Shown here: piece after piece, positions 4,830 to 42,094 of the stretch | Numbering within the stretch: the stretch's first letter is position 1 | Layout of the letters: each line of letters opens with the position of its first letter | Assembly (NCBI GenBank): GCA_036490175.1 | Contig: DASXEJ010000088.1 | Coordinates: 1 to 64,000, forward strand | DNA length: 64,000 nucleotides | DNA from: Pirellulales bacterium | Lineage (GTDB): Bacteria; Planctomycetota; Planctomycetia; Pirellulales; JACPPG01 | Reading direction: 5' to 3' | Position numbers and translations under genes: made by a program | The notes under the pieces: generated by a model | What the model was told of the DNA's origin: nothing | The model's input: only the letters and a program-made list of their open reading frames with translations | The model's database searches: none

Positions 4830-4837
4830 CGGCGGCC

Positions 4838-6217
4838 CTACCGTTTATCGGTGCCTGCCGTGCCATCGGAATTTTGCGCCGCGGGCGCAGTGTCCGCCGC
4901 TGCTGGACCCGGCTTACCATCTACCGGCTTATCCGCCGGCGGCGCTGTGGGCTTGTCGTCCTCAGTGGCAGCCGGTTTTGCCGGTGGCTGTGCCGGGGCT
5001 GGCGTTTTCGCAGCAGCACCGTGTTCCGCGGCATCAGATTCGGCCGCCGCTGCCGCTTCGGCCACGGGAATCGGCATCGGCAAGCGATCGGGCGTGACCT
5101 CGATCCTCGGGCGGATTTGTTGCAGGCCACTGATAACGACCCAATCGTCGGGCTCCAGCCCCGTGGCGATCACGCGCAACCCATCCTCTTGCAAAGCTCC
5201 CAGCGTCACGCGGCGATACTGCACCTTGTTCTGGGCGTCGACCACGTAAAGAAATTTCAAGCCCTGGTCCGTCCCCACGGCGCGGTCCGTGACCAATAGC
5301 GCCGGATGCGGTTCTCCCAACGGGATTCGCACCCGCACGAAGAATCCCGGCGACAGCAGACGAACGCCGCTGGCCGGCTTCGGATTCTTGAACATGCCGC
5401 GGAGCGTGAGCGTGCCGGTATTGGGATCGACTTTGTTATTGATGAAATTGACAACCCCTTCGTGCGGATAGCCGTCTTCCCCCTGCAATCCCATCATGAT
5501 CGCGATTTCGCCTTGCTCTTTAGGAAACAACTTACCTTCGTTGATCGCGTTGCGAATGCGCAACAACGTGCGTTCGTCGACGTCGAAGTAGGCGTACATC
5601 GGGTCAAGCGAAACCACCGTGGTCAGCAGAGTCTGATCCTGATTGACCAGGTTGCCGAGTGTGAAATAGTAACGGCTCACCATGCCGTCGATCGGCGAAG
5701 TCACTTCGCAAAACTGACGGTTCAGCCTGAACGTTTCCAAGTTCGCCGTCGCGGCATCGACCGCGGCCATGGCCTCTTCTTCAGAGGCCTCGTACTTGTT
5801 GAGGTCTTGCACGCTCACAGCGCCCGGCGTCTTCGAAGTCTCTTTCGCCAGGGCGTTGTCGGCCTGCGCCAGCTTGAGCCGGGCTTTGGCCAGCTTCAAT
5901 TGCCCCTCGGCCTGATCGAGCTGTGCCTGATATGGCCGCACGTCGACCTCGAACAGCAGTTCGCCCGCCTTGACGTCGCTTCCTTCCGTGAACGGCATCT
6001 TGGTCAGATAGCCCGTCACACGCGGACGGATGTCTACCGAATTCGGGGAATCGGTCCGCCCCGTGTAGTCGATGTAATCCACAACATCGCGGCGAATCGG
6101 CTGACTGACGCTGACCACGGGCATAGCCGGTCCCGCGGGCAGGGCCGGCGCGTGGCCGCATCCCGGCGCGAACACCAGCGCAAACGCGATAATGGTCCCT
6201 AACGGACGGAGAATCAT
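4838..6217 (-). CDS. RND efflux membrane fusion (periplasmic adaptor) lipoprotein with an Ala/Pro-rich C-terminal tail
   Basis: Translation shows the HlyD/AcrA-like coiled-coil plus beta-barrel pattern. Likely start is the ATG at 6215-6217 (MILRPLGTIIAFALVFAPGCG, lipobox Cys), with GGGAG 8 nt upstream. The longer ORF reaching 6403 is probably an upstream over-extension. Confidence 0.85.
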   Translation of the reverse strand: MILRPLGTIIAFALVFAPGCGHAPALPAGPAMPVVSVSQPIRRDVVDYIDYTGRTDSPNSVDIRPRVTGYLTKMPFTEGSDVKAGELLFEVDVRPYQAQLDQAEGQLKLAKARLKLAQADNALAKETSKTPGAVSVQDLNKYEASEEEAMAAVDAATANLETFRLNRQFCEVTSPIDGMVSRYYFTLGNLVNQDQTLLTTVVSLDPMYAYFDVDERTLLRIRNAINEGKLFPKEQGEIAIMMGLQGEDGYPHEGVVNFINNKVDPNTGTLTLRGMFKNPKPASGVRLLSPGFFVRVRIPLGEPHPALLVTDRAVGTDQGLKFLYVVDAQNKVQYRRVTLGALQEDGLRVIATGLEPDDWVVISGLQQIRPRIEVTPDRLPMPIPVAEAAAAAESDAAEHGAAAKTPAPAQPPAKPAATEDDKPTAPPADKPVDGKPGPAAADTAPAAQNSDGTAGTDKR

Positions 6218-6438
6218 GCCCAATAAACTCCCGACGGAAGGCAGGCAGAGGCGGAGCGTCTGGCAGGAAAACGAGGGCGGAGCAAGAAAAATATAGCTCC
6301 GCGATTGCGCGCAAAATCCCGGATAAGCCGCCAAAATAGGCTCAAGTAGCCGGCCGTCGTGTGCGGCCCTCATGCGCCGACGCGTACCCAGGGGGGTGGG
6401 CATAGTGCCCCTCCCCCTAGTCGCGCCGTCGCATATAG

Positions 6439-8649
6439 CTACTGCTGGTCCTTCGTGCCGGATTGCACCGATTCGATGACCTGCTTCGTCATCCGCGCGG
6501 CGAAATCTTTGAACTCCACCGTCGCCGGATCATTCGCCTCGGACTGAAAGCCCGATTTCTCAGCCACTAGCAGGCTGATCAACAGCCCCAGCAACCCCGT
6601 CGCCTGACCAGAGGGGGCTGCGCTCGCGCCATCTCCGCCGGCGACAAAAACGCGTTCCGGCACCAGCGGCTGCGTGCTCTTGGACAACTGCTCGGCCAAG
6701 AGCGACATGGCATATAGCCGTGGATCGCGATACGAGGCGATGCGCTGGAACAAAACTGCCGCCTCCGACAGACCCACGTGCGCGATCCGCTGCGCTTCGC
6801 CTCGGCCAGCCAGCTCGCGCTGACGGGCGTCGGCTTCGGCCAGCACGATGGTTTGCTCGGCCTGTCGTCGCGAGCGCGACAACTCGCCGTCCGAGACCAC
6901 GACCACCTGCTCGGCCTGCTTGCGGGCACGTGCCAGGTCGGCTTCTCCATGGCTTTCCGAAATCTGAATCTGCACTCGGGCGTTCGTCAACTCGGTTTGC
7001 ATATTGGCCTGGGCCTGCGACTCGTTAAGGATCCGCAGCTTGTCAGCCGCGGCCCGCTGGCGCTCGTAGGTCTCTAGTTGCTCGAACGATAACTGGCGTT
7101 GCCGTAGCTGTTCGAGCAGCGTCTCGATCTTCAGATCCCCCTTCTCCGAATCGGGCTTGCCGATCAAGACATCGACGCATTCGATGTCAAATTCGCGAAA
7201 CCTCTTGCGCAGCACTTCGCGGGCTTCGGCCTGGATCTCATCGCGCTCGTGCAACAGGGCAAGCATGGTCTTCTTATGCGCCACATCGCGAAAGAAAGCC
7301 GAGAGCATCGGATCGAGCGTCTGAGTGATCAGTCGCTTAACGTCGCCGAAACGCTGGATGACGCTCGGCGCCCGCTGATAGTCGATATGCACGACGACCG
7401 ACAGCGGCAACAACGGTTCGTAGGCATCCTTCGTCACCAAATCGATCGATCGCAGACTCTCGTCGTAACGATGCGATTCACTCTTGCCCGTGATCCAGTG
7501 CAATACGAAGTTCGTCGTGGGCACCAACACGATGCTGCCGGCGAAGGTATTAAATGGGTATTTTCCGGGGCCTAGAGGCCGCTCCCACACACCGCGCTCT
7601 CCTTCGGCCACCCGCTCACCGTGACGGAAGGCATCGCCCGAAACGTCCGTTCCCTGGCGACCGTAATAGCTAACCACCACGCCGACATAGCCGATCGGCA
7701 CCACGGTCTTGGGAATCAACTCGACCGCTGCAAACCAACGGTTGATAAAGTACGTGCCGTCGGTCAGTGGCAGGTACTGACGACCGCGCCGGCCGCCGGC
7801 CCGCAACATGGCCTCGGGATCCTGATAGTTGTTGTGATAATTCTCATCGGCCGGATCGGTACCGACCGCCGGTGCGATGATTTCTCCCGGCGCAAGGGAC
7901 GGTCCGTCATGCACTGTGACAATGCCGATGCTATCGACTTCTTCGACACTGTCGGGGTCGAGCGGATGAGGCGTGGGCAACGGACGCCCGACGATGACCG
8001 GCTCGAAACCGTCGATTTCGAGCAGATCTTCCCGCCACTTGGCCACGATCTGCACTTCCTGCGGGTCCATCAAATGCCGCAGCGCATGAACCCGTGCTTC
8101 GGTAATGACGATAAAGGTCGCCGCGTTGATGGCGTACACACCTTCACGCAGAATGGCGCGCTGGCGACCACGCTGACCGTGCGAATCGTTCCCTGATCCG
8201 TTGCCGGCCAGGAACCGTCGTGCGTCTTGAAAGTAATTGCAGTCCACGATTCGCCCCAACGTCTGTCCCGACGAAAGCGGGGCTCCGTCGCGGGCGTAGA
8301 CGTAGCCGATCTTGCCCTGAGCGATCGTCACCAGTCTCGATTTATGGATACGGTATTGCCACCGCCAATAACCGAAGTGGATGCCACCGCGCAGCAATTC
8401 GGCCTGATAGCCGGCCTCGCGCCCTAGCGCCACGATGCGTCCCTCGGGCACCGATCCGGCCGCCGACCATAGCTTCTCGACGATGCCTACCCGATCGTTG
8501 GGAATAAAACGCAGCGTCAGCCAAGAGAACAGCAACAGCGCCGCGAATACTGCCAGCACGATCAAACCTACCCCCGTCCACCCCTGAAGTAATGAACCCG
8601 CAGTAACAGCAAACAGAACTTCCGACCCACCAATCACCCAGGTAGTCAT
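6439..8649 (-). CDS. Flotillin-like SPFH/band-7 domain protein (YqiK/FloA-like) with a long EA-rich coiled coil
   Basis: N-terminal TM segments are followed by an SPFH-like region and a long charged coiled coil (EAREVLRKRFREFD...ELTNARVQIQISESHGEADLARARKQAEQ). Likely start is MTTWVIGG at 8647-8649, with AAGGAT 6 nt upstream. Confidence 0.8.
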   Translation of the reverse strand: MTTWVIGGSEVLFAVTAGSLLQGWTGVGLIVLAVFAALLLFSWLTLRFIPNDRVGIVEKLWSAAGSVPEGRIVALGREAGYQAELLRGGIHFGYWRWQYRIHKSRLVTIAQGKIGYVYARDGAPLSSGQTLGRIVDCNYFQDARRFLAGNGSGNDSHGQRGRQRAILREGVYAINAATFIVITEARVHALRHLMDPQEVQIVAKWREDLLEIDGFEPVIVGRPLPTPHPLDPDSVEEVDSIGIVTVHDGPSLAPGEIIAPAVGTDPADENYHNNYQDPEAMLRAGGRRGRQYLPLTDGTYFINRWFAAVELIPKTVVPIGYVGVVVSYYGRQGTDVSGDAFRHGERVAEGERGVWERPLGPGKYPFNTFAGSIVLVPTTNFVLHWITGKSESHRYDESLRSIDLVTKDAYEPLLPLSVVVHIDYQRAPSVIQRFGDVKRLITQTLDPMLSAFFRDVAHKKTMLALLHERDEIQAEAREVLRKRFREFDIECVDVLIGKPDSEKGDLKIETLLEQLRQRQLSFEQLETYERQRAAADKLRILNESQAQANMQTELTNARVQIQISESHGEADLARARKQAEQVVVVSDGELSRSRRQAEQTIVLAEADARQRELAGRGEAQRIAHVGLSEAAVLFQRIASYRDPRLYAMSLLAEQLSKSTQPLVPERVFVAGGDGASAAPSGQATGLLGLLISLLVAEKSGFQSEANDPATVEFKDFAARMTKQVIESVQSGTKDQQ

Positions 8650-9386
8650 GTGCCCGATCCTTGTTTTGTCTGTGCTGTGCGTTCGACGCCTGAGGGCTCT
8701 GCACCCTGCGTTAAGCACTACTTTTCCCAACAAGCCACGATTTGCAGGGCTGGTACTCTGCCGCGCAGACACACCCCTGCCGAGCATCACCGGCGATCAT
8801 AGATCGCGCGCGAACGCAATCCAGCCGATCAATCGTGGAGATGGGTTAAGTAGTCCCTGCACCCGTGAGAGCCTGCCGAACAAGCGCGCAGCCAGAATTG
8901 GATACACGCCAGAACACCGAGAGGATGCGCTCACCGTCTACGCAAAAGACGAGAAAGTGTCCTTTCAACGCTTGGCCGGGATCACATCTCCCGGCGGGCC
9001 TACGAGGTTAGCTGTCGGGCTAGGGCTTGAAAGTGCCCTGGTTCGCAATCAGGCGAACCTGCGCCCCGTGAAATCAGGCCAGAATCAAAACTGGCAGCCT
9101 GATTTCGTTTGGGTCCCCCGCTACCGCGTCTGGCGACGCGTTATTAGGCTACACACTGTAATTATACAATGCCGCCGAAGGTCAACAATCTTTCGCGCTC
9201 CCGATTCGATCGCAACTCGAATCAGCGCTTCGAGATTGGTTTCGTTTCCTGTTACCACCCGAGTGGTGTCGAGTGACGAACGTTCCGTAAAGGCATCGAA
9301 GTTTCAGGAACGTGTTCGCGACGTTCCTACTGTTTGTATCGCACAAAGAAGAGTTCGCGACGCATTGCACCTTTTGAGGGACCATC

Positions 9387-11168
9387 ATGCGAGCGGCGAT
9401 AAGTGTTCTGCTGACCGCGTTCGTCTTAGTCGAGACCGCGCACAGCGCCACCGCGCCAGCCAAGGCGCGGCCGAACGTGATCGTGATTCTCACCGATGAT
9501 CAGGGGTGGGGCGACCTGAGCGTGCATGGCAATACGAACCTGCATACGCCGCACATCGATTCATTGGCACGCGACGGGGCGCTGTTCGAGCGATTTTACG
9601 TCCAGCCCGTCTGTTCGCCGACGCGCGCCGAGTTTCTTACCGGGCGCTACCATCCGCGTGGCGGGGTCTTCAGCACGTCGACCGGCGGCGAACGACTCGA
9701 CCTCGACGAGCGCACGATCGGCAACGCCTTTCACGATGCCGGTTACGCCACGGGCGCATTCGGCAAGTGGCACAACGGCGCCCAATACCCATACCATCCC
9801 AACGGCCGCGGCTTCGACGAGTTCTACGGTTTCTGCTCGGGCCATTGGGGAGACTATTTTGATCCTCCGCTGGAACACAACGGTGAATCGGTGCGCGGCC
9901 GGGGCTATATCAGCGACGACCTGACCGACCACGCGATGGCATTTATCGACGAGCATCGCGCTAACCCGTTCCTGTGTTACCTGGCTTTCAATACGCCGCA
10001 CTCGCCGATGCAGGTGCCGGATCGCTTCTTCGAGCCATTCCGAGACGCCGAAATTCCGCTGCGGCACAAAGGGCCACAGCCCGAAGACCTGGGCACGACG
10101 CGCGCGGCTCTCGCCATGTGCGAGAACATCGATTGGAACGTGGGGCGCGTGCTCGAAAAACTCGCCGATCTGAAGCTCGCCGACAACACGATCGTGGTCT
10201 ATTTTTGCGATAACGGTCCCAATAGCTGGCGTTGGAACGGCGGGTTCAAAGGGCGCAAGGCATCGACCGACGAAGGGGGCGTCCGCTCCCCGCTGCTGGT
10301 GCGCTGGCCGGGACATATTCCCCCCGGCACGCGCGTAAAACCGGTCGCCGCCGCGATTGATCTGCTCCCTACCTTGGCAGGTCTGTCGGGCGTCGACAGC
10401 AAAGCCGACAAGCCGCTCGACGGAGTCGATCAAACCGAGTTGCTGCTCGGCGCGCGAGCGACCGCGCCGCCGCGACTCATCTTTTCGCATTGGAATGACA
10501 AGGTCAGCGCGCGGGACGATCGTTACATGCTGGACCACACCGGACATGTTTACGATTTGTCGGTCGACCCGGGCCAAACCACCGACAAACGACAAGTACT
10601 CGCCGCCGAGGCGACCCGACTCTCGAGCGCTCTGAACGAATGGAAAAGCACGGTACTCGCCGAGCTGACGATGGACCCACGTCCCTTTACGGTAGGCTAC
10701 CGCGAGTTTCCCAATACGGTGCTACCGGCCCGTGACGGCATGCCACACGGCATGGTGCAGCGCAGCGCCCGGGCGCCCAATTGCTCGTTCTTCACCAACT
10801 GGAAAAGTCCAGATGACTACATCACGTGGGACATCGACGTGGCGACGACCGGACGCTACGAAGCAACCCTCTATTACACCTGCCCGGCGGCCGATATTGG
10901 CTCTGCGTTTGAATTGCGTTGCGGTAGCAATCAGGTAACGGGCAAGGTGACCGAAGCCCACGATCCGCCCCTCGTGGGCGCGGAACACGATCGCGTGCCG
11001 CGCGAGGGGGAGTCGTTTGTCAAGGATTTCAAGCCTCTCTCGGTCGGCGTGATCGAACTACCGAAAGGACGAAGCGAGCTCCGGCTCGTCGCCACCAGCG
11101 TTCCAGGACAGACGGTGATGGACCTGCGCGGTATCACGCTCAAGCTCCTGGGTGAGACGGGGCGGTAA
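9387..11168 (+). CDS. Sulfatase (formylglycine-dependent aryl/choline-sulfatase family) with a C-terminal extra domain
   Basis: Signal peptide, [15 protein letters not shown], and the C-S-P-T-R formylglycine motif ([14 protein letters not shown]). Confidence 0.85.
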
Positions 11169-11203
11169 CCGACTTTTGGTGACCGGTACAAGACCTGCGG
11201 CGT

Positions 11204-11217
11204 CCGTCGATCGACGG
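11204..11217. promoter_or_regulatory. Perfect 14-bp palindrome CCGTCGATCGACGG, 36 bp after the stop of the first sulfatase
   Basis: The sequence is its own reverse complement. It could be a hairpin, a terminator stem, or a dimeric regulator site. Confidence 0.4.
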
Positions 11218-11247
11218 TAGAATACGAGTCATGTCGTGGCCCATGAC

Positions 11248-11267
11248 AAACGGACAGAAACGGACAG
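11248..11267. repeat. Tandem direct repeat AAACGGACAG x2
   Basis: Direct reading: caaacggacagaaacggacagaat. Confidence 0.6.
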
Positions 11268-11341
11268 AATTTGGGACGAAACTCATTATTTCCCGGGAAA
11301 TGCGCTAGATCGTCCGGTCACGACGTCAATTTTCGGACCGT

Positions 11342-11368
11342 TGAATAATGTGAATAATGTGAATAATT
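11342..11368. repeat. Three tandem copies of the 9-bp unit TGAATAATG (the third is TGAATAATT), AT-rich, ~60 bp upstream of the second sulfatase start
   Basis: Direct reading: ttgaataatgtgaataatgtgaataatt. Confidence 0.7.
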
Positions 11369-11428
11369 CCCCGCAGCATGGTAGCGCCGCTGGGGGGTAA
11401 TCACACCAGTGTCGGCGGAAATTAACAA

Positions 11429-13126
11429 GTGACAACCATGATGTGGATCGTTCGCCTGACGTCGTTTCTTGGTCGACAGCTTTATGTGCCGCGACTGGCA
11501 GCCGCGAGGATCCTCGCCTTCGCAGTCATCGCAACATTCGCAGCCAACGCGCTGGCCGCTCAATCGCAGCCGCCGAATATCGTGCTGATCGTGGCCGACG
11601 ACATGGGCTGGTCGGATCTGGGTTGCTATGGATCCGAAATTGCGACGCCCAATATCGACAGGCTGGCCGCCGGCGGACTGCGATACACGCAGTTCTACAA
11701 TGCGGCCCGTTGCTGCCCCACACGAGCCGCGTTGTTGACGGGCCTTTATCCTCACGCGGCGGGCGTCGGGCATATGTTGCAGGATTGGCGCGTGCCGAAC
11801 TACACGTCGGGCATCCTGCCCACGACCGCCACCTTTGCAGAGATTTTGCACGAGGCCGGGTATCGCACGTACCACGTGGGGAAATGGCACGTCGGCGGAG
11901 CAGGCAAGGCCGATCACCCCAATCATCCGTTAAACCGCGGGTTTGATCACGCTTTTGGCACCGCGGGCGGCGGAGGTTATTTCAACCTGCAACCGCTCTA
12001 CCGCGATCGCGAATACATCAAACCCGGTGAGAATTTCTACGCGACCAATGCCTTCACAGAGAACGCGATCCACTTCCTGGAAGACTACGGTCGCACAGGC
12101 GAAGGAAAACCGTACCTGCTGGAACTCTGCTACACGGCTCCGCACTTTCCCCTGCACGCGTTGCCCGAAGATATCGTGAAGTATCGTGGACGCTACCGCG
12201 ATGGCTGGGACGCGCTGCGAGCCAAACGTTTCGCGCGGCAACAAGAGATCGGCCTGCTGCCGGCCGACACCAAGCTCTCGCCCCGCGACCCGGTCGCCAA
12301 GGCCTGGGAGGATTTGCCGGAATCGGAGCGTGACGAGTGGGATTTGCGCATGGCGGTTTATGCCGCCATGATTGATCGGATGGATCAGGGCATCGGCCAG
12401 GTTCTGGCTGCGGTCGATCGCCTGGGATCGCGCGATAATACTCTGGTACTTTTTCTTTCCGATAATGGCGCGAGCGCCGAGGCACTCGATACTTGGCCTA
12501 ATCCCGCCCGCGGACATCGCCCCGGAACTCAGACAGGCGAACCGGGCTCGCACCACTGCCTGGAAGTAGGCTGGGCCAACGCGGCCAACACACCCTTTCG
12601 CGAGCACAAGATGTGGGTCAACGAAGGCGGTATTTCCACGCCGCTTGTGGCAAGCTGGCCGGCCGGCATCGCGGCCCGCGGCGGTCTTTGCCATGACGTC
12701 GGGCACGTGATCGACATCATGCCGACGCTGCTGCAAGTAGCCGGCGCAAAATATCCCGCCGCACTGCACGATCGCCAGCTGTTGCCGTTGGCCGGACAGA
12801 GCCTGGCAGGCACATTTGCAGGCGACAAATCGAGCGAGCGGACATTGGCGTGGGAGCATGAGGGAAATCGCGCCATTCGCGTGGGCGATTGGAAGCTGGT
12901 TGCCGTCTATCGTGGCCCCTGGCAACTCTTTGACCTGGCGCACGACCGTTCGGAAACCAATGATCTCGCCAGCCAACAACCAGAAAAATCCCAAGAATTG
13001 GCCGTCGCCTGGCAAAGCTGGGCCGACAAGGTCGGCGTCGTTCCCTGGGAGCAATTGCCCGGAGCCAACTACAAACCATCGGCCGGCTACCGCAAAAAGT
13101 CCGAACCGGTAACGCCGGGACCATGA
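11429..13126 (+). CDS. Sulfatase (arylsulfatase family)
   Basis: Signal peptide, IVLIVADDMGWSDLGCYGS, and C-C-P-T-R (ARCCPTRAALLTG), the sulfatase active-site signature. Confidence 0.85.
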   Translation: MTTMMWIVRLTSFLGRQLYVPRLAAARILAFAVIATFAANALAAQSQPPNIVLIVADDMGWSDLGCYGSEIATPNIDRLAAGGLRYTQFYNAARCCPTRAALLTGLYPHAAGVGHMLQDWRVPNYTSGILPTTATFAEILHEAGYRTYHVGKWHVGGAGKADHPNHPLNRGFDHAFGTAGGGGYFNLQPLYRDREYIKPGENFYATNAFTENAIHFLEDYGRTGEGKPYLLELCYTAPHFPLHALPEDIVKYRGRYRDGWDALRAKRFARQQEIGLLPADTKLSPRDPVAKAWEDLPESERDEWDLRMAVYAAMIDRMDQGIGQVLAAVDRLGSRDNTLVLFLSDNGASAEALDTWPNPARGHRPGTQTGEPGSHHCLEVGWANAANTPFREHKMWVNEGGISTPLVASWPAGIAARGGLCHDVGHVIDIMPTLLQVAGAKYPAALHDRQLLPLAGQSLAGTFAGDKSSERTLAWEHEGNRAIRVGDWKLVAVYRGPWQLFDLAHDRSETNDLASQQPEKSQELAVAWQSWADKVGVVPWEQLPGANYKPSAGYRKKSEPVTPGP

Positions 13127-18247: not shown

Positions 18248-19543
18248 GTGGCCAGTATGATCTCGAAAGTCCTCGTCAAGTCGCCCGAGCATAGACAGCA
18301 GCCGACAACGGCGCTGCCTCCGCTTGGGCATCCGCCCAAGGCTCGCCGCCGCATGGGCAGATGGCTTGCCTTGGCCGTCTTGGTTGGCGCTGCTGCGGCC
18401 GCCTATTTCACCGTACCTTGGGAGACCGTCGCAGGGTTGCTACCGTTAGGCGGCGCCAAGCCTGTCGCCACACGCGAAGTGCGGGCCATTCCGGTCGTAG
18501 CCGTAGCCGCCCGGCAGGGCGATATGAGCTTGTATCTCAACGGCCTCGGGTCCGTGACAGCGCTCTACACGGTCACGCTCCGCAGCCGGGTTGATGGCGA
18601 GCTTCTGAAGGTCGCATTTTCGGAGGGTCAGGTTGTCGAGAAGGGAGACCTACTAGCTCAGATCGATCCACGTCCCTACCTGGTTCAACGCCTGCAAGCG
18701 CAAGGGCAATTGCTCAAGGATGAAGCGGCCCGGCAAATCGCCCAACTCAATCTGGATCGCTTTTTGGCCCTGCTCCCCAACAGGACAGTAACCCAGCAAC
18801 AAGTGGACGAGCAAATAGCACTCGTCAAACAGGCCGAGGGTGCTATCGAGGCTGACCAGGCGTTGATCAAGAACATTGATCTGCAACTCGAATACTGCAA
18901 GATCGTGGCACCGATCCCCGGCACCATCGGGCTGCGTCTAGTCGACCCCGGGAACATGGTTAAGGCCAACGATCCGACCGGCATGGCCGTGATCAATCAA
19001 TTGCAGCCCATCACAGTTGTCTTCACCATCCCGCAAGATGATATTTCCCGGCTGCAAAAACAAATCAACTCGGGACGCGAACTCGGCGTTGATGCGTTCG
19101 ACCGCGATTTCAAAAATAAGCTTGCCAGCGGCACGCTCAAGGCACTGGATAATCAGGTCGACGTCACGACCGGAACGGTCAAATTGAAGGCGATCTTCCA
19201 GAACGAAGATCACATGCTGTTTCCCAATCAATTCGTGAACGCCCGGTTGTTGGTCGATACGATGCACGACGCGGTAATCGTCCCTGCGGCGGCAGTACAG
19301 CAGGGGCCCACCGGCACGCTGGTTTACGTGGTGGGGCCGGATTCTACGGTGGAAGTGCGACCCGTGACCGTCGGACCCACCGAGGCAGACGAGACCACCA
19401 TTGCCAGCGGGTTGTCGCCGGGTGATGTGGTCGTGGTGGACGGCGTCGACAAGCTTCAGCAGGGAACCAAAGTCGCACTGCGAGAGCGTGTGTCGCCCGC
19501 CGGCGGCGTGCCCACTGCCGGACGCCCCGCGCAAGGTTCCTAA
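18248..19543 (+). CDS. RND efflux membrane fusion protein (MdtA-like adaptor)
   Basis: TM/signal segment, a lipoyl-like region and coiled-coil hairpin ([26 protein letters not shown]), then a beta-barrel. Its stop overlaps the start of the next RND gene (TAATG). An alternative start is MGRWLALAV at 18353. Confidence 0.85.
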
Positions 19544-22500
19544 TGAATCCCTCTCGGCCATTCATTCTGCGGCCCGTCGCCACGGTGCTGTTGATGGCCG
19601 CCATTCTGCTGACGGGCATCGTCGCCTATTACCAGTTGCCGGTTTCGGCGCTGCCGCAGGTCGATTACCCGACGATTCAAGTCATGACGTTTTACCCCGG
19701 TGGAAGCCCCGAGGTCATGGCGTCGTCCGTTACGGCCCCCTTGGAGCGGCAATTTGGCCAGGTACCCGGTCTGAACCAGATGACGTCAAGCAGCTCGGAA
19801 GGCTGCTCGGTGATCACGCTGCAATTCATTCTCGATCTGAATATCGACGTGGCCGAGCAGCAGGTGCAAGCCGCGATCAATGCCGCGGCGACGTTCCTGC
19901 CGCGCGATCTGCCGGTCCCTCCCATCTACAGCAAGACAAATCCGGCGGACGCACCGATTCTGACACTGGCCCTCACCTCGTCCACGCTCCCCCTGTCCAA
20001 GGTGCAGGATTTCGCCGATACCCGGCTGGCCCAGAAGATCTCGCAGCTCTCCGGCGTCGGGCTGGTAAGCATCAGCGGAGGGCAAAAGCCCGCCGTGCGC
20101 ATCCAGGCCAACCCGACGGCATTGTCCGCACTTGGCATGAGTTTGGAAGATGTCCGCATGGCGGTTTCGCTGGCCAACGTAAACCAGGCCAAGGGCAGCT
20201 TCGATGGCAGCCGCCAATCGTTCACCATCAGCGCCAATGATCAACTGCTCACGAGCGACCAATACCGCAAGCTGATTATCGCCTACCGCAACGGCGCTCC
20301 GGTGATCCTGTCGGATGTAGCCAGCGTCATCGACGGCGTTGAGAACGCCCGGCAAGCTGCGTGGATGAACGAGATTCCGGCCGTGATTCTCAACATTCAG
20401 CGGCAACCCGGGGCAAACATCATTGACGTGGTCGAACGCGTCAAAAAACTGTTGGTCCAGCTCCGCGCCTCGCTGCCCGCGGCGATTTCGATTTCAGTGC
20501 TGACCGACCGTACCACTACGATTCGGGCCTCGGTCGAAGACGTGCAGTTCGAGTTGGTCCTGACCATTGGGCTGGTGGTGCTGGTCATCTTTTTGTTCCT
20601 GCGCAGTCTGACGGCCACCGTGATTCCGAGCGTGGCTGTCCCGCTGTCCTTGGTCGGAACGTTTGCGGTGATGTACCTGCTGGGGTACAGCCTGAACAAC
20701 CTTACGTTGATGGCGTTGACGATCTCGACCGGCTTTGTCGTCGACGACGCCATCGTCATGATCGAGAACATCGCGCGCTACATCGAACAAGGCGAAGCGC
20801 CGATGGCGGCGGCGTTAAAGGGTTCGTCCGAAATCGGTTTCACCATCGTATCGCTCACGATCTCGCTCATCGCGGTACTGATACCCCTGCTGTTCATGGG
20901 CGATATCGTCGGCCGGCTCTTTCGCGAGTTCGCAGTTACGCTGAGCGTCACCATTCTGGTGTCAGCGCTGGTGTCACTGACGCTCACCCCCATGATGGCC
21001 GCGCGCATCCTGCAGCATCAGCCCGAGTCGCAGCAGGGGATGATGTACCGCCTGTCCGAGAGCTTTTTCAACGAGGTGATCCGCTGGTACGGCGGCACAC
21101 TGAGATGGGTGCTCCGGCATCAGGTCATGACGCTTGTGGTCGCGATCGCCACGCTGCTGGCCACCGTGTACCTGTACATTGTCGTGCCCAAAGGCTTTTT
21201 CCCCGTTCAGGACGGCGGCGTGATCTTGGGCATCTCGGAAGCCCCGCACACGGTTAGCTTTGCAGCCATGTCCGAGCTGCAACAGAAGTTGACCCACGTC
21301 ATCGTAAAAGACCCGGCCGTCGAAAGCTTGTCGTCGTTCATCGGCATCGACGGCACGAACTCGACGCTCAACAGCGGCCGGATTTTGATTAACCTCAAGC
21401 CGCTCGAAGATCGTCACATATCGGCCTCTACCGTCATCCGCCGCCTGCAGGGCGAACTCGAACATGTTGACGGCATCACGCTCTTCATGCAGCCGGTGCA
21501 GGACCTGACCGTAGAAACCAGGGTCAGCCGCACGCAGTTCCAGTACAGCCTGGAAGATCCAGATGCAAAAGAACTGAGCCTGTGGGTTCCCCAGCTGGTA
21601 AGCCGTTTGAAGACATGCCCTCAACTGGTCGATGTGACGAGTGATCAGCAGGACATGGGACGACAGATTCGCGTCGTCATCGATCGGGACTCGGCGTCAC
21701 GGTTGGGCATCACGCCGCAAATGATCGATGACGTGCTGTACGACGCGTTCGGTCAACGGCAGATATCGATGATGTTCACGCAACTGAACCAATACCGGGT
21801 CGTGCTGGAGGTTAAGCCCGAGTTCCGCGATAATCCACAAGACATCAGCAACATTTACATTCATTCTCCGCTGGCGGGAAAAGTACCACTTGGCACGTTC
21901 ACGCGCATCGAAGAGTTGAATGCGCCGCTGGCCGTTAACCATCAGGGCCAGTTTCCGGTGACCACGATCTCGTTCAACCTGGCGCCGGGGTCGTCTTTGG
22001 GTGACGCAGTGCAAGCGGTGGAACAGGCTAAAGAAGAACTCGACCTGCCGCTGAGTATCAATGCTACGTTCCAAGGCACGGCGAAGGCATTTCAGGCGTC
22101 GTTGCGCAATGAGCCGTTATTAATTCTGGCGGCGCTCGTTACGGTATATATCGTACTCGGCGTACTCTACGAGAGTTACATTCATCCGATCACGATTCTC
22201 TCGACGCTGCCGTCAGCTGGCGTCGGCGCATTATTGGCGCTCATGCTCTTCGGCATGGACTTGGATGTGATCGCGCTGATCGGCATCATCCTGCTGATCG
22301 GCATTGTGAAGAAGAATGCGATCATGATGATCGACTTTGCACTCGAGGCCGAGCGGCACGAGGGCAAGCCGCCGGGAGAGGCCATCTACGAAGCCTGCCT
22401 GTTGCGCTTCCGGCCCATTATGATGACCACCATGGCCGCGCTATTGGGTGCACTGCCGCTGGCGCTGGGAAACGGCGTCGGTTCCGAGCTACGACGCCCC

Positions 22501-22659
22501 TTGGGCATTACGATTATTGGCGGCCTATTGGTAAGCCAGGTACTGACGTTGTACACAACCCCGGTCATCTATTTGGCCTTCGACGGTATTGCCAAACGCC
22601 TCCGCAAGCGGTCGTCCTCGGAACCTGCGGCCACGCCCGTGGGGGAGGATTGGACATGA
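19543..22659 (+). CDS. RND efflux permease, MdtB-like (heteromeric RND pair, subunit 1), 1038 aa
   Basis: Starts [47 protein letters not shown], an MdtB/MdtC-type N-terminus with 12-TM architecture. Confidence 0.9.
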
Positions 22660-25600
22660 GTCTCTCGACTCCGTTCATCTATCGCCCGATCGGCACGACC
22701 TTGATCACCGTGGCGATCACGCTGGTCGGAGCCCTGGGATATTTTCTGCTGCCTGTTTCGCCACTGCCGCAGGTCGAATTCCCCACGATCCAAGTGAATG
22801 CATCGCTTCCCGGTGCCAGCCCCGAGACGATGGGTTCGGCGGTTGCTACTCCGCTTGAGCGGCAATTCGGTCGTATCGCCGGTGTAACCGAGATGACGTC
22901 GATGAGCTTCTTGGGCTCGACTTCGATCACGATGCAATTCGATCTGAATCGGAACATCGACGCGGCAGCTCGCGATGTCCAGGCCGCCATCAATGCCGCC
23001 AGAAGTCAGTTACCTGCCAATCTGCCCAGCAACCCTACTTATCGCAAGGTGAACCCGGCCGATGCGCCGGTGATGATATTGGCGTTGACGTCAGATACCT
23101 ACGAGAAGGCCCGTATATATGACGCAGCCTCGACGATCCTGCAGCAAAAGTTGTCGCAGGTGCGCGGGGTCGGGCAAGTGATCGTCGGCGGTGGCGCACC
23201 ACCGGCGGTCCGCGTCGACGTGAATCCTACCTCATTGAACCATTTGGGATTGGTCCTGGAAGATGTGCGTACCGTACTGGGCACGGCCAACGCCAATCGC
23301 CCCAAGGGTCACATCGCGGATGACGATCGAGCCTGGTCGATCACGACCACGGATCAGCTTCTGAAAGCCGACGAATACCGCCCCCTGATCGTGGCCTATC
23401 GCAACGGCGCACCCATTCGACTCCAGGATATCGCCACCGTTACGGACGGGGTCGAAGACATCTTTGCGAAGGGGCTCTCTGACGGCAAGCCGGCGGTGCA
23501 GATCATCATCTTTCGCCAGCCGAACGCCAATATTATTCAGACTGTCGACCGTGTGCGTGCACTGCTGCCGCGACTGCAGGCCGAAATTCCCGCCGGCATC
23601 GAATTGGCCGTGGCGCTCGATCGCACGACGACGATTCGCGCCTCGGTCGAGGATGTGCAGTTTACGCTCGTGATTTCGATCGGCCTGGTGATCCTGGTTG
23701 TGTTTTTGTTCCTGCGCGATTTGCGCGCGACCTTCATTCCCAGCATCGTCGTCCCCGTGTCGCTGATCGGCACATTCGGCGTCATGTATTTGATGGACTA
23801 CAGCCTCGATAATCTGTCGCTCATGGCACTTACCGTCGCGACGGGCTTCGTCGTGGATGACGCCATCGTGGTGATCGAGAACATTAATCGACATCTCGAA
23901 GAAGGGATGAAACCACTCGCTGCCGCCCTGCACGGCGCACAGGAAATCGGCTTTACCGTACTCTCGATCAGCGTCTCGCTTGTTGCGGTATTCATACCGA
24001 TCTTGCTCATGGGAGGAATCGTCGGGCGCTTGTTCCGTGAGTTCGCCGTGACACTGTCTGTCGCCATCGCAGTCTCGATGTTGATCTCGCTGACGACGAC
24101 GCCAATGATGTGTGCCACGTTGCTAAAAAGCCATGGCAAAGATAGTCATGGCTGGTTCTATCGGGTGAGCGAATGGTTTTTTGATGTCGTTTTGCGGGCC
24201 TACGAAATCACGCTCGGATTCGTCTTGCGCCATCAGCGGATTACAATGCTGGTCACGCTGCTGACGCTGGCTTTTACCGTTTACCTGTACGTCATCATCC
24301 CCAAGGGTTTTTTTCCTCAGCAAGACACCGGGCGTCTGAGTGGTTCGATCGTGGCCGATCAAAACACGTCGTATCAGGCGATGGAGCACCTGTTGACGCG
24401 ATTCGCCAGCACCGTCAGCGAGGATCCGGCCGTCGAGGGCGTTATCGCCTTCACCGGCGGTCAAGGCGGAACGGCCAACGCCGGACGCATGTTCGTCAGT
24501 CTGAAGGCGCTGGAAGAGCGAAAGATGTCCGCGGACGAGGTGATCGGAAGATTGCGTGGAAAGCTGGCCCGTATTCCAGGGGGCACCCTGTTTCTACAAG
24601 CCGTGCAGGACCTTCGCATCGGCGGTCGATCCAGCAGTTCGCAGTACCAGTTCACCCTGCAGGGTGACAACCTGGACGACCTGGTCGAATGCGGTCCTGT
24701 CGTGCTGCGCGAGATTCGCAAGCTATCGACCGTGGTTGACGTCAGCACCGATCAACAGAATCGCGGATTGCAAGCATCGCTCGACATCGATCGACTGATG
24801 GCGGCGCGGCTGGGCATTACGCAGCAATCGATCGACGACACGCTGTACGATGCATTTGGGCAGCGAATGGTGTCGACGATGTACATGCCACTCAACCAAT
24901 ATCACGTCGTGATGGAGGTCGACCCCGGTTTTCGTCAGGATCCTACAGGCCTGAAGCACATCTATGTCGCCGGCGCCATGCAAGCGGAAGTTCCGCTTAG
25001 CGAGTTTTCCAAGTCCTCGACCAAGACCACAGCCTTGGCCGTCACGCATTCCGGCTTTTTCCCCTCGGTCACGATCTCGTTCAACTTGGCGCCGGGAGCT
25101 TCACTAGGTGAAGCGGTCGAACAAATCCAGGACGTGCAGCGCGAGCTGGCGCTGCCCGCCACGATCCGCAGCAGCTTTTCCGGTGCCGCCCAGGCGTTTC
25201 AGGCCTCGTTGCGAAACGAGCCGATTCTGATTCTCGCGGCCTTGGTCACGGTGTACATCGTCTTGGGAATACTCTACGAGAGCTTCATTCACCCGATAAC
25301 GATTCTGTCGACGCTCCCTTCGGCCGGCGTAGGCGCGCTACTCGCGCTGATGCTCTGCCGGACGGAATTGAACGTGATGGGCTTGATTGGCATCATTTTG
25401 CTGATCGGCATCGTCAAGAAAAACGCGATCATGATGATCGATTTCGCGCTCGAAGCGGAGCGCAAGGATGGCACGCCTCCGGACGAGGCCATATTCCAGG
25501 CTTGCATCCTGCGATTTCGCCCGATCATCATGACGACCATGGCCGCTCTATTGGGCGGTCTCCCCTTGGCCCTGGGAACGGGCAATGGAGCCGAGTTACG

Positions 25601-25766
25601 GCGGCCGCTGGGCATCGCCATCGTCGGAGGCTTGATCTTCAGCCAGGTTTTGACGCTCTACACGACACCGGTTGTGTATCTGTACCTCGACCAATTCCGC
25701 CTATGGTGTGCACAATGGCGGCGACGCGCGCCGCATGCCGCAGTCGAGGAACTCGTCGAAGTGTAG
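22650..25766 (+). CDS. RND efflux permease, MdtC-like (subunit 2), 1038 aa
   Basis: Starts [47 protein letters not shown], and is paralogous to the preceding gene. Its start overlaps the upstream stop. Confidence 0.9.
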
Positions 25767-40188: not shown

Positions 40189-40655
40189 TCGTGCTCCTTT
40201 TGCGCAGAGAATTTCTAACCGTAGAAAAGCGCACCCTAACCAAAGGTGGACCCAACGCGAGTGAGAGGGTCACGCCCAGCCCGCGAACGAATGTTCGTGG
40301 TACCAGGCGACTGATCCAAACCGACTCTACTCGGCGGCTACAAACACCACTACTGAACGGCGCGTGAGTTTGTGCTGAGCATTCGATGTAGTTTGTATTC
40401 GCTCCCCGTCGAGCGCGTGCGAGTCTGCGCGTCGACCCTGTGGCTTTGTCAAACGCACATCCGTCGGCATGTCACGGGCGGCCGTGCAACCACTCCTGCG
40501 AATCGACCTGCCGGATACCGCTAGCACGTGGCGCCTCGGTTTCTCACGAAAATCTAGCGCGACTCTCATCTCCGGAAAATGGGATCCGCCGATGATTACA
40601 CTAGGCAGGCGATTAGGATGTCGTCGCAAGAAACCCTCTCAAGGAAGCGAGTCTC

Positions 40656-41399
40656 ATGGTGAACTTCGACGCGGTCATCGTTAGCGATTTGCACTTGGGC
40701 GCGCGCAACAGGCGGGGTAATGACTTCCTGCGTTTCCTGCACACGATTCGATGACAGCGATTGGTCCTGGCCGGCGACTTGTTCAACGATTCACGTCTAC
40801 GTGGATTGCAGGAGCGAGACGTGCAGATCGTGGAGTTGCTGAGACGGTACACTAAACACGTTCGCGTTGATTGGGTCGTCGGCAATCATGACCCGTCTCC
40901 AACCTGGTTCGCCGCGTTGCTGGGAATCGAGGCGCAAGAGGAAGTCATCTTGAACGTCGGTGCCGCGCAGTACCTGGTGTATCACGGGCACGGCTGGGAT
41001 CCTTCGCTTAGTTGGCCACAACTCGAAGTCGACACGGCGGACGCTGTTTACTTCGCGTGCCAATGGCTCGACTCTTCGCATCGTCTGGCGCGACGCCTTA
41101 AACGCACGTCAAAGCATTTCTTCCATGTGACCGATGTCCTCCGTCGGCGAGCCATCGACGAAGCGCGCCTGCGAGGCGTGGCCGGTGTTATCCTGGGCCA
41201 CTCGCACCTGGCGTGTGACGTACGTAGCGCGGACGTTCACTATTTGAACTGCGGATGCTGGACAGAAAAGCCTTTGTCGTTTGTTGGCATCTCGGGCTCG
41301 ACAGCGCGAGTTTACGATTGGGATCCTGTGGCACGTACGCCGCTGCCGCGCAGTCTGACGCCGCTTGATGCCGAGACACTTCTGAATTCCTGTGCCTAG
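40656..41399 (+). pseudogene. LpxH-family metallophosphoesterase (UDP-2,3-diacylglucosamine diphosphatase-like) interrupted by an in-frame TGA at codon 33 (40752..40754)
   Basis: ATG at 40656 gives MVNFDAVIVSDLHLGARNRRGNDFLRFLHTIR, then TGA, then the same frame continues QRLVLAGDLFND...VVGNHD...GHSHLACD. The D-x-H, G-D-x-x-D and G-N-H-D calcineurin-like motifs are split across the stop, and the N-terminus resembles LpxH (DLHL...FLRFL...GDLF). Confidence 0.6.
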
Positions 41400-41968: not shown

Positions 41969-42094
41969 ATGAAGAAGTTCACTGCTATTTGTGCCCTGCT
42001 GTTGGTTCTCGCCATGGCCGTTCAAGCCGACGCTGGTTTGCGCCGTTGCCGTGGCGGCAAGTGTGGCAAGGCTGCCTGCGGCGCGTGCAAGTAA
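41969..42094 (+). CDS. Small secreted cysteine-rich cationic peptide (41 aa precursor; predicted 21-aa mature peptide with 4 Cys)
   Basis: GAGGAG lies 8 nt upstream of the ATG. The product is MKKFTAICALLLVLAMAVQA|DAGLRRCRGGKCGKAACGACK, a Sec signal peptide with a VQA cleavage motif. An intrinsic-terminator-like hairpin follows 18 nt after the stop. The ORF is below the 60-aa cutoff of the supplied ORF track. Confidence 0.5.
   Translation: MKKFTAICALLLVLAMAVQADAGLRRCRGGKCGKAACGACK

What the first reader, a model, noticed from the sequence alone, without database searches (positions are those of the whole stretch)
40656..41399. LpxH-family phosphoesterase gene interrupted by an in-frame TGA between the D-x-H and G-D-x-x-D motifs
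The ATG at 40656 gives a 32-aa N-terminus carrying the DLHLG motif and the LpxH-like FLRFL segment. The same frame then hits TGA (40752-40754) and continues for 214 more codons through all remaining metallophosphoesterase motifs. The stop therefore sits inside the catalytic domain. It could be a sequencing error, a recent nonsense mutation in a dispensable paralog, or a recoding event; the last would be notable, but I see no obvious SECIS-like hairpin immediately downstream. If this is the only lpxH/lpxI-type gene and the organism makes lipid A, it would normally be essential. The truncated product could only initiate from the TTG at 40761, which would lose the first metal-binding motif.
Basis: seen in the sequence. 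Interest (0 to 1): 0.55.

Follow-up and report, generated by a model that had tools for sequence, protein, structure and literature searches.

The report
Recently broken LpxH-like phosphoesterase gene
A Pirellulales bacterium carries a real stop codon early in an LpxH-like phosphoesterase gene, and the evidence points to an ordinary recent gene inactivation that also happened independently in its sister lineage, not to recoding or an assembly error.

Summary
ATG 40656 opens a 247-codon metallophosphoesterase frame that is interrupted only by TGA 40752-54 (codon 33), between the D-x-H and G-D motifs.

- **The stop is real.** It is present in two other, sequence-identical assemblies and in a 99.5%-identical strain from another sample.
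- **Intact orthologs exist.** About 100 are known, mostly ~245-265 aa, one of them in the same gene neighbourhood. They start at the same ATG and usually have Thr at codon 33.
- **The sister lineage is also broken.** At dS 0.52 it has TGC (Cys) at codon 33 but its own TAG at codon 46, seen in two samples.
- **The damage is recent.** Between the lineages the gene was under purifying selection (dN/dS 0.12), and all 57 near-invariant residues are intact. Among the closest strains, amino-acid changes accumulate at the neutral rate (4 seen, 4.0 expected if neutral, 0.48 if constrained).
- **Recoding is unlikely.** There is no SECIS-like element, the position is variable, and TGA terminates ordinary genes in the window.
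- **It is not bona fide LpxH.** The fold is LpxH-like, but it has GNHD rather than GNRD and scores 21.5 bits against a cutoff of 134. It is LpxH2-like, so essentiality is unproven.

Verdict: two recent, independent nonsense inactivations of a probably dispensable gene. Low interest.

The parts
40543..40655 (+). Conserved 5' leader or promoter region of the gene. It has four sequence blocks at fixed spacing and ends in the Shine-Dalgarno-like AAGGAAG (40641-47).
   Evidence: The blocks are conserved in the orthologous loci examined (protein identity to the window's product about 68% and above); two loci show only some blocks. There is no Rfam match. It marks ATG 40656 as the ancestral start.
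40656..40751 (+). Codons 1-32 of the metallophosphoesterase, including motif I (D11-x-H13, 40686-40694) and helix 21-30.
   Evidence: Over codons 1-47, dN/dS against the sister lineage is 0.098.
40752..40754 (+). In-frame TGA at codon 33. It derives from TGC (Cys) by a C>A change and is followed by C (UGA-C).
   Evidence: The sister lineage has TGC here and outgroups have ACN (Thr). In 98 intact homologs the position is T 64, A 21, V 6, P 3, C 2, F 1, with one gap.
40755..41399 (+). Codons 34-247 plus the TAG stop. They carry motifs G40-D41 (40773-78), GNHD 76-79 (40881-92), H110-G-H (40983-91), GHSH 181-184 (41196-41207) and a helical lid (residues ~116-173).
   Evidence: None of the 57 near-invariant family columns deviates.
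40761..41399 (+). The 212-aa TTG-initiated ORF as called by public annotation (JGI 'LpxH'; NCBI HEY1599190.1 'metallophosphoesterase'). It lacks motif I.

Best explanation
This is a recently inactivated gene. An LpxH-like (LpxH2-type, COG2908-like) calcineurin-fold metallophosphoesterase of an uncultured Pirellulales bacterium acquired a nonsense mutation, TGC(Cys33)>TGA. Ribosomes starting at the conserved SD and ATG (40656) terminate after 32 codons. Any product restarted at TTG 40761 lacks the D-x-H metal ligands and should be catalytically dead (inferred). The lesion is young: the rest of the ORF and its leader are still pristine, and decay is only just visible as neutral-rate amino-acid polymorphism. 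The sister lineage lost the same gene independently through TAG at codon 46, which suggests the enzyme has become dispensable in this clade.

Shown: the stop is real, it is shared by strains, the orthologs are intact, the ancestral codon is identified, past purifying selection was strong, and there is a parallel stop in the sister lineage. Inferred: loss of function and dispensability.
For: - **The TGA is in several assemblies.** It is in the window, in L003 and L063 (identical), and in the 99.5% strain L062 from a different sample.
- **No intact allele of this clade is on record.** None appears in the 15-billion-protein collection. All six contigs at 87% identity or more are interrupted, and the nearest intact proteins are at most 78% identical.
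- **Orthologs are intact.** They start at the same SD and ATG. The intact ortholog P0009 sits in the same upstream gene order, PSP1 ... MPE.
- **The sister lineage has its own stop.** L001 and L002 have TGC at codon 33 and TAG at codon 46, in two samples that differ by SNPs.
- **Past selection was purifying.** Between the lineages dN/dS is 0.119 at dS 0.52, with no indels in 741 nt. Deviations at the 57 columns that are at least 90% conserved number 0 (window) and 1 (sister, G181S in GHxH). Both stops must therefore be young. From 33 nonsynonymous differences over 553 sites, the neutral time is at most about 0.06 substitutions per site in total.
- **Recent change looks neutral.** Window vs L062 shows 3 nonsynonymous and 2 synonymous differences (R19S, F156C, C199R). 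L001 vs L002 shows 1 nonsynonymous difference. Four were observed against 4.0 expected under neutrality and 0.48 under the long-term constraint (Poisson P = 0.0015). The neighbouring ffh shows 0 against 6.2 expected under neutrality.
- **The family is disrupted elsewhere too.** L068 is split by a frameshift into 152 + 121 aa, and P0014, P0015 and P0020 look frameshifted.
- **The protein is not a bona fide LpxH**, so essentiality is not implied.
Against: - Two sister lineages each carrying a fresh nonsense mutation within the first 46 codons of an otherwise perfectly conserved gene, with a conserved leader, is a coincidence. A tolerated-stop mechanism would explain it more economically.
- The neutral-rate argument rests on only 4 nonsynonymous and 2 synonymous changes. 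A McDonald-Kreitman-style Fisher test is not significant (p = 0.18).
- pN/pS is generally inflated between very close strains.
- The window, L003 and L063 may derive from the same reads.
- Nothing outside the 64-kb window could be checked for a compensating LpxH, LpxI or LpxG gene.
Confidence: 0.72

Rival explanations
1. The stop is tolerated and the gene still works. One route is low-level readthrough of UGA (window) or UAG (sister). The other is termination followed by re-initiation at the TTG two codons (window) or one codon (sister) downstream, giving a two-chain enzyme whose N-fragment supplies motif I.
For: - Both lineages keep an otherwise flawless ORF and leader, with dN/dS 0.12 and 57 of 57 and 56 of 57 near-invariant residues.
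- Both stops are followed by C. From my own knowledge of E. coli, UGA-C is the weakest termination context.
- Both stops fall in predicted loop or edge positions, between helix 21-30 and strand 35-39, and at the start of helix 45-50.
- A TTG follows each stop within 3-6 nt.
- No intact allele of the clade is known.
Against: - Amino-acid polymorphism since the stops arose fits neutrality, not constraint.
- The sister lineage also carries G181S in the catalytic GHxH motif.
- There is no SD-like sequence before either TTG.
- TTG is simply the conserved Leu36 and Leu48 codon.
- A +4 C has a 1-in-4 chance at each stop.
- I know of no precedent for a split calcineurin-fold enzyme.
Confidence: 0.15
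2. The UGA encodes selenocysteine, as a Sec/Cys pair with the TGC of the sister lineage.
For: - TGA aligns with a Cys codon in the closest relative.
- Some Planctomycetes have complete Sec machinery (PMC4807772).
Against: - Codon 33 is a variable surface-loop position (T, A, V, P, C, F) at the far end of strand beta-2 from the metal site. It is not a conserved redox Cys.
- Nothing in 40400-40900 matches any Rfam family, the bacterial SECIS models I recall Rfam holding included, at E of 1 or less.
- The downstream fold is unremarkable (z = -1.0). Its hairpin loop UCUA lies 41 nt after the UGA and has no G.
- The window has no tRNA-Sec and no sel genes.
- The Cys-bearing allele is itself broken by TAG.
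- Recent polymorphism looks neutral.
- I know of no selenoprotein metallophosphoesterase.
Confidence: 0.03
3. The stop is an assembly or sequencing error, and the true codon is a sense codon.
For: The window, L003 and L063 are 100% identical and may share reads. Metagenome consensus sequences can carry errors.
Against: - L062 comes from another sample and is a different strain, with 18 differences over 4.4 kb, yet it has the same TGA.
- The change is a substitution, not a homopolymer indel.
- All large genes in the window are full-length against Pfam.
- The sister lineage's TAG is likewise seen in two samples.
Confidence: 0.03
4. The real gene is the annotated 212-aa protein from TTG 40761, a genuinely shorter protein, and the upstream 32 codons form a separate leader peptide.
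For: JGI and NCBI annotate it this way. The N-terminal 32 and 45 codons are called as separate small ORFs.
Against: - About 100 orthologs are continuous from the same ATG.
- The SD and leader are positioned for ATG 40656.
- The short product lacks Asp11 and His13, and in the sister lineage also the G-D motif.
- The two lineages would need different start points.
Confidence: 0.03
5. The organism reads TGA as a sense codon through an alternative genetic code.
For: None beyond the in-frame TGA itself.
Against: TGA terminates many long genes in the window whose products match Pfam models end to end, for example AcrB 1-1020 of 1021. The genome is 59.6% G+C. The sister lineage's stop is TAG.
Confidence: 0.005

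Closest known systems
LpxH (UDP-2,3-diacylglucosamine diphosphatase; PDB 5B49, 5K8K, 6PH9, 8QJZ)
   Same: It is the best match both by sequence profile (5B49, E = 2.5e-7) and by fold: the top 19 Foldseek hits are all LpxH, TM about 0.6, aligned over the full length. Both have a calcineurin-type core with a helical lid inserted between motifs IV and V, and an HRLAR-LK-SK stretch that aligns with LpxH's lid.
   Different: Identity is only about 20%. Block 3 is GNHD, not LpxH's GNRD. The NCBIfam LpxH equivalog scores 21.5 bits against a cutoff of 134. No lpx genes are nearby. Activity is untested.
LpxH2-type paralogs (Opiyo et al. 2010, PMC3087551)
   Same: It carries the D..GD..GNH(D/E)..H..GHxH signature with His, not Arg, in block 3. 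That paper calls LpxH2 dispensable when LpxH is present, and cites Babinski et al. that P. aeruginosa lpxH2 failed to complement E. coli lpxH.
   Different: Phylogenetic placement within the IPR010138 cluster was not tested. The family here is confined to Pirellulales and related Planctomycetota, plus one MAG protein that NCBI labels Opitutales (P0106).
Ordinary bacterial pseudogenes formed by a single nonsense mutation
   Same: There is one premature stop in an otherwise intact ORF, intact orthologs in relatives, and relaxed constraint afterwards.
   Different: Parallel, independent nonsense hits in two sister lineages are less common. The public annotation calls a truncated CDS rather than a pseudogene.
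Bacterial selenoprotein genes (UGA plus bSECIS)
   Same: An in-frame UGA aligns with Cys in the nearest relative.
   Different: There is no SECIS, no conserved or redox Cys, and no Sec genes in the window. The Cys allele is itself interrupted.

Membership tests
Calcineurin-like metallophosphoesterase superfamily (PF00149 / PF12850) | Score above the Pfam gathering threshold | tested here: met
   Metallophos_2 scores 40.1 bits (cutoff 27) and Metallophos 32.8 bits (cutoff 21.5) on the conceptual read-through translation.
Calcineurin-like metallophosphoesterase superfamily (PF00149 / PF12850) | Five motifs: D-x-H, G-D, G-N-H-[DE], H, G-H-x-H | tested here: met
   D11-L-H13, G40-D41, G76-N-H-D79, H110/H112 and G181-H-S-H184 are all present. 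Motif I is separated from the others by the TGA.
LpxH proper (NCBIfam NF003743 equivalog) | Score at or above the curated equivalog cutoff | tested here: not met
   21.5 bits against a cutoff of 134.
LpxH proper | Arg in block 3 (G-N-R-D), proposed to bind the UDP moiety | tested here: not met
   GNHD here, invariant across the family. P. aeruginosa LpxH has HGNRD in the aligned position. The Arg/His distinction is described in PMC3087551.
LpxH proper | Helical lid (cap) domain inserted in the phosphoesterase core, and an overall LpxH fold | tested here: met
   The AlphaFold model (pLDDT 86, pTM 0.86) has helices 116-119, 122-138, 143-151 and 153-173. The top 19 Foldseek PDB hits are all LpxH, TM about 0.6.
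LpxH proper | UDP-2,3-diacylglucosamine hydrolase activity or complementation of lpxH | not testable with these tools
   This needs an enzyme assay or complementation with an intact ortholog such as P0002 or P0009.
LpxH proper | Genomic association with lipid A genes | tested here: not met
   No lpx gene was found among 30 large ORFs of the window. The neighbours are a PSP1-domain gene, ffh, rpsP, trmD and rplS. Association is not obligatory for LpxH.
LpxH2 type (Opiyo 2010) | Signature D-Xn-GD-Xn-GNH(E/D)-Xn-H-Xn-GHXH with LpxH-like similarity | tested here: met
LpxH2 type (Opiyo 2010) | Placement inside the IPR010138 LpxH/LpxH2 clade in a phylogeny | not tested
Bacterial selenoprotein gene | SECIS hairpin downstream of the UGA, with a G-containing apical loop at about 16-37 nt (criteria recalled from my own knowledge) | tested here: not met
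   The MFE z-score is -1.0. The only strong hairpin has loop UCUA 41 nt after the UGA. No Rfam family matches at E of 1 or less.
Bacterial selenoprotein gene | UGA aligned with a conserved (catalytic or redox) Cys in homologs | tested here: not met
   Cys occurs in the sister lineage and in 2 of 98 other homologs. The column is T 64, A 21, V 6, P 3, C 2, F 1, with one gap.
Bacterial selenoprotein gene | selA, selB, selC and selD in the genome | not testable with these tools
   None is in the 64-kb window. The rest of the MAG was not available. The trait exists in some Planctomycetes.
Nonsense-mutation pseudogene | A premature stop that is real and is absent from orthologs | tested here: met
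Nonsense-mutation pseudogene | Relaxed selective constraint after the lesion | tested here: inconclusive
   Four nonsynonymous changes were observed, against 4.0 expected if neutral and 0.48 if constrained (P = 0.0015). The counts are tiny and the McDonald-Kreitman-type test gives p = 0.18.
Alternative genetic code (TGA as a sense codon) | TGA is not used as a terminator of ordinary genes | tested here: not met
   TGA ends many long ORFs that match Pfam models over their full length.

The most novel reading that the evidence does not exclude
The two different early stops (UGA-C at codon 33 here, UAG-C at codon 46 in the sister lineage) are tolerated rather than inactivating. In this reading the clade still makes the enzyme, either by stop-codon readthrough or as a two-chain protein formed by termination and re-initiation at the TTG just downstream. 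That would explain why no intact allele of the clade exists, while the ORF, all catalytic motifs and the conserved leader remain in near-perfect condition.
Probability: 0.1. Interest if true: 0.6.

Novelty: already known. Interest (0 to 1): 0.17.

Why it matters
The practical value is in annotation. The public 212-aa 'LpxH' or 'metallophosphoesterase' CDS (HEY1599190.1 and the JGI calls) is best treated as a pseudogene fragment, and the name 'LpxH' should not be read as evidence for lipid A step 4 in this MAG.

Biologically, the parallel loss in two sister Pirellulales lineages hints that this LpxH2-like enzyme is dispensable under some conditions. That is a small data point on the still-unknown function of LpxH2-type proteins.

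If the minority reading were true, with the stops tolerated, this would be a natural case of a split or read-through calcineurin-fold enzyme.

Tried and rejected
- **Metagenome and genome scans.** Scans of metagenome contigs and genome contigs with the protein found no further members of the window's clade. The closest were 76%, 71% and 63% identical, so they added no population data.
- **NCBI contig.** Looking up the NCBI version, P0122, returned nothing.
- **Conservation test for decay.** I counted deviations at columns 60-90% conserved. The window and sister sequences are not outliers, so there is no sign of long-term decay.
- **McDonald-Kreitman-style test.** Not significant (p = 0.18).
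- **Rfam.** A scan at gathering threshold and a permissive scan of 40400-40900 found no SECIS, riboswitch or other family at the locus.
- **Promoter and terminator scan.** Nothing found.
- **Repeat search.** I looked for a cause of the contig breaks at 40398 and found nothing.
- **Interrupted ORF pairs.** A mechanical search of the window was uninformative, because long spurious open frames are common at 60% G+C.
- **Paralogs.** tblastn found no second copy in the window.
- **Literature.** A search for the lipid A pathway of Planctomycetes returned only Opiyo 2010.

Full report
**1. The observation**

The sequence is as described.
- ATG 40656 is preceded by AAGGAAG at 40641-47.
- It opens a frame that reads MVNFDAVIVSDLHLGARNRRGNDFLRFLHTIR, then hits TGA at 40752-54.
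- The frame then continues for 214 codons to TAG 41397-99.
- The only long ORF after the stop starts at TTG 40761 (212 aa).
- The conceptual 247-aa product matches Pfam Metallophos_2 (40.1 bits) and Metallophos (32.8 bits), with alignments running across the stop.
- D-x-H lies before the stop. G-D, G-N-H-D, H-G-H and G-H-S-H lie after it.

**2. Is the stop real?**

The window most likely comes from an NCBI third-party MAG contig of a 'Pirellulales bacterium'. The evidence is the 212-aa protein HEY1599190.1 on a 69-kb contig.

- A JGI contig (L003) and a Logan contig (L063) are 100% identical to the window and carry the TGA. They may rest on the same reads.
- L062, from a different JGI sample, is a distinct strain with 18 differences in 4.4 kb. 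It carries the same TGA.
- All large genes of the window match their Pfam models end to end, and many end in TGA. The assembly is therefore not error-ridden, and TGA is a normal terminator here.

**3. What the orthologs show**

A search of 5.8 billion protein clusters found about 160 relatives. Almost all are from Pirellulales or other Planctomycetota, and most are 245-265 aa and uninterrupted.

- They begin at the same Met, and most have Thr where the window has the stop. Across 98 intact homologs that position is variable: T 64, A 21, V 6, P 3, C 2, F 1, with one gap.
- An intact ortholog at about 70% identity (P0009) sits behind the same upstream genes, PSP1 ... MPE.
- A roughly 115-nt leader with four fixed blocks and the SD is conserved upstream of the ATG in the orthologs examined at about 68% identity and above.
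- This rejects the idea that the protein genuinely starts downstream of the stop.

**4. The sister lineage**

The closest relatives are L001 and L002. They come from two further samples that differ from each other by SNPs, and they share about 86% nucleotide and 87-88% amino-acid identity with the window.

- They have TGC (Cys) at codon 33 but a TAG at codon 46, where the window has TCA. The window's TGA is therefore one C>A step from TGC.
- The sister lineage suffered its own, independent nonsense mutation.
- No intact allele of either lineage exists in the 15-billion-protein collection. The next relatives are at most 78% identical.

**5. Selection**

*Long term.* Between the two lineages the gene shows dN/dS = 0.119 at dS = 0.52. 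The value is 0.098 for codons 1-47 and 0.121 for the rest. There are no indels, and the value is within the range of the neighbouring genes (0.009-0.45).
- At the 57 columns that are at least 90% conserved in the family, the window deviates nowhere. The sister deviates once, at G181S in GHxH.
- Looser conservation thresholds show no excess of deviations either.
- Both stops are therefore young. With 33 nonsynonymous differences over 553 sites, the summed neutral time is at most about 0.06 substitutions per site. It is at least about 0.003, because the strains share the stop.

*Short term.* Among the closest strains the picture reverses.
- Window vs L062 shows 3 nonsynonymous changes (R19S, F156C, C199R) and 2 synonymous changes.
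- L001 vs L002 shows 1 nonsynonymous change.
- With local neutral divergence taken from non-coding and synonymous sites, 4.0 nonsynonymous changes are expected under neutrality and 0.48 under the long-term constraint. Four were observed (P = 0.0015).
- The neighbouring ffh has 0 where 6.2 would be expected under neutrality.
- The numbers are small, and a McDonald-Kreitman-style test is not significant (p = 0.18). The direction is still what a recent loss of function predicts.

**6. Recoding**

A TGA/Cys pair is the classic selenoprotein signature, and some Planctomycetes do have Sec machinery (PMC4807772). I therefore tested this reading, and the evidence is against it.
- The position is a variable loop residue between helix 21-30 and strand 35-39, at the end of beta-2 away from the G-D metal ligand.
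- The RNA downstream folds no better than shuffled sequence (z = -1.0). Its one good hairpin is too far from the UGA and lacks the loop G.
- No Rfam family, SECIS models included, matches 40400-40900 at E of 1 or less.
- The window has no tRNA-Sec and no sel genes.
- The Cys-bearing allele is itself broken by TAG, which no Sec mechanism explains.
- A changed genetic code is excluded by normal TGA usage.

A leaky or re-initiated product cannot be excluded. Both stops are followed by C, both lie in predicted loops, and each has a TTG within 3-6 nt. I keep this as the main rival at about 15%.

**7. What the protein is**

- By sequence profile the nearest solved structure is P. aeruginosa LpxH (E = 2.5e-7).
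- By fold, the top 19 PDB hits for a confident model (pLDDT 86) are all LpxH, aligned over the full length including the helical lid.
- It nevertheless fails two defining tests for LpxH itself. The NCBIfam equivalog scores 21.5 bits against a cutoff of 134. Block 3 is GNHD rather than GNRD.
- Opiyo et al. (PMC3087551) use exactly this His/Arg difference to separate LpxH2 from LpxH. They cite Babinski et al. that P. aeruginosa lpxH2 does not replace E. coli lpxH.
- No lpx genes are in the window.
- The 'essential gene' premise is therefore unsupported, though it is not refuted, because the rest of the genome was not available.

**8. Verdict**

This is a real, recent nonsense mutation in an LpxH2-like metallophosphoesterase that is probably dispensable. 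It is mirrored by an independent nonsense mutation in the sister lineage.
- Other family members are also disrupted. L068 is split by a frameshift into 152 + 121 aa, and P0014, P0015 and P0020 look frameshifted.
- It is ordinary gene decay caught early. It is not an artefact and very probably not recoding.
- The public annotation of a 212-aa CDS should be read as a pseudogene fragment.

Noticed in passing
window 40543-40655 (+); also L001 5747-5859, L013, L065, L066, L067: A roughly 115-nt non-coding leader lies upstream of the phosphoesterase gene. It has four blocks at fixed spacing: CTCACGAAAATCTAGCGC, CCGATGAT, a GGCGAT..GGATGTCGCC hairpin, and CTCAAGGAAGCGA with the SD. The blocks are conserved in orthologous loci down to about 68% protein identity. 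There is no Rfam match, no sigma-70 consensus, and only weak covariation. It may be an undescribed cis-regulatory element or promoter.
   Followed up: partly
window 41972-42094 (+); L001 7180-7305; L064 ~1352; L065 2536-2679; L066 ~6637; L013 ~1626: A small conserved ORF of 41 aa lies about 450-570 nt downstream of the phosphoesterase gene. It has a signal peptide (MKKFTAICALLLVLAMAVQADA) followed by a Cys/Arg-rich peptide of about 19 aa (GLRRCRGGKCGKAACGACK). It is 100% identical in the sister lineage despite dS of about 0.5, and it is present in the same position in more distant relatives.
   Followed up: partly
window 8983-9160 (-) and ORF 6439-8790 (-): A c-di-AMP (ydaO-type) riboswitch (62 bits against a gathering score of 38) lies directly 5' of a 783-aa ORF with an SPFH/Band 7 domain.
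   Followed up: no
window 40398-40508: Two other assemblies of the same strain (L003, L063) both begin at window 40398/40399. Homology with the sister lineage lapses between 40401 and 40508. This looks like a variable or assembly-breaking spot just upstream of the conserved leader. No repeat was found there.
   Followed up: partly
window ~42185; L062 2238-2329: Strain L062 carries an extra segment of about 93 nt, relative to the window, in the non-coding stretch between the small ORF and ffh.
   Followed up: no
L068 1501-2326: A more distant family member (about 55% identical to the window's protein) is split into 152 + 121 aa by a frameshift at ...GCGCGT-A-CTGAAGCGA.... The same 152-aa and 121-aa gene pair is called in an ENA/NCBI assembly and in a Logan assembly whose DNA could not be fetched. 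This is another disrupted copy of the gene family.
   Followed up: partly
window 40752-40757 compared with outgroup codons 33-34: The common ancestor of the window and sister lineages changed ACC GAC (Thr-Asp) to TGC CAG (Cys-Gln), four substitutions within six bases. Both later nonsense mutations (TGC>TGA, and probably TCG>TAG) are C>A transversions.
   Followed up: no
window 18248-25766 (+) and 1446-6403 (-): There are three full-length AcrB-type RND pumps, two of them in tandem and overlapping (19543-22659, 22650-25766), together with HlyD-type adaptor genes. Two sulfatase genes (9387-13126) are also present. These are ordinary for Pirellulales.
   Followed up: no
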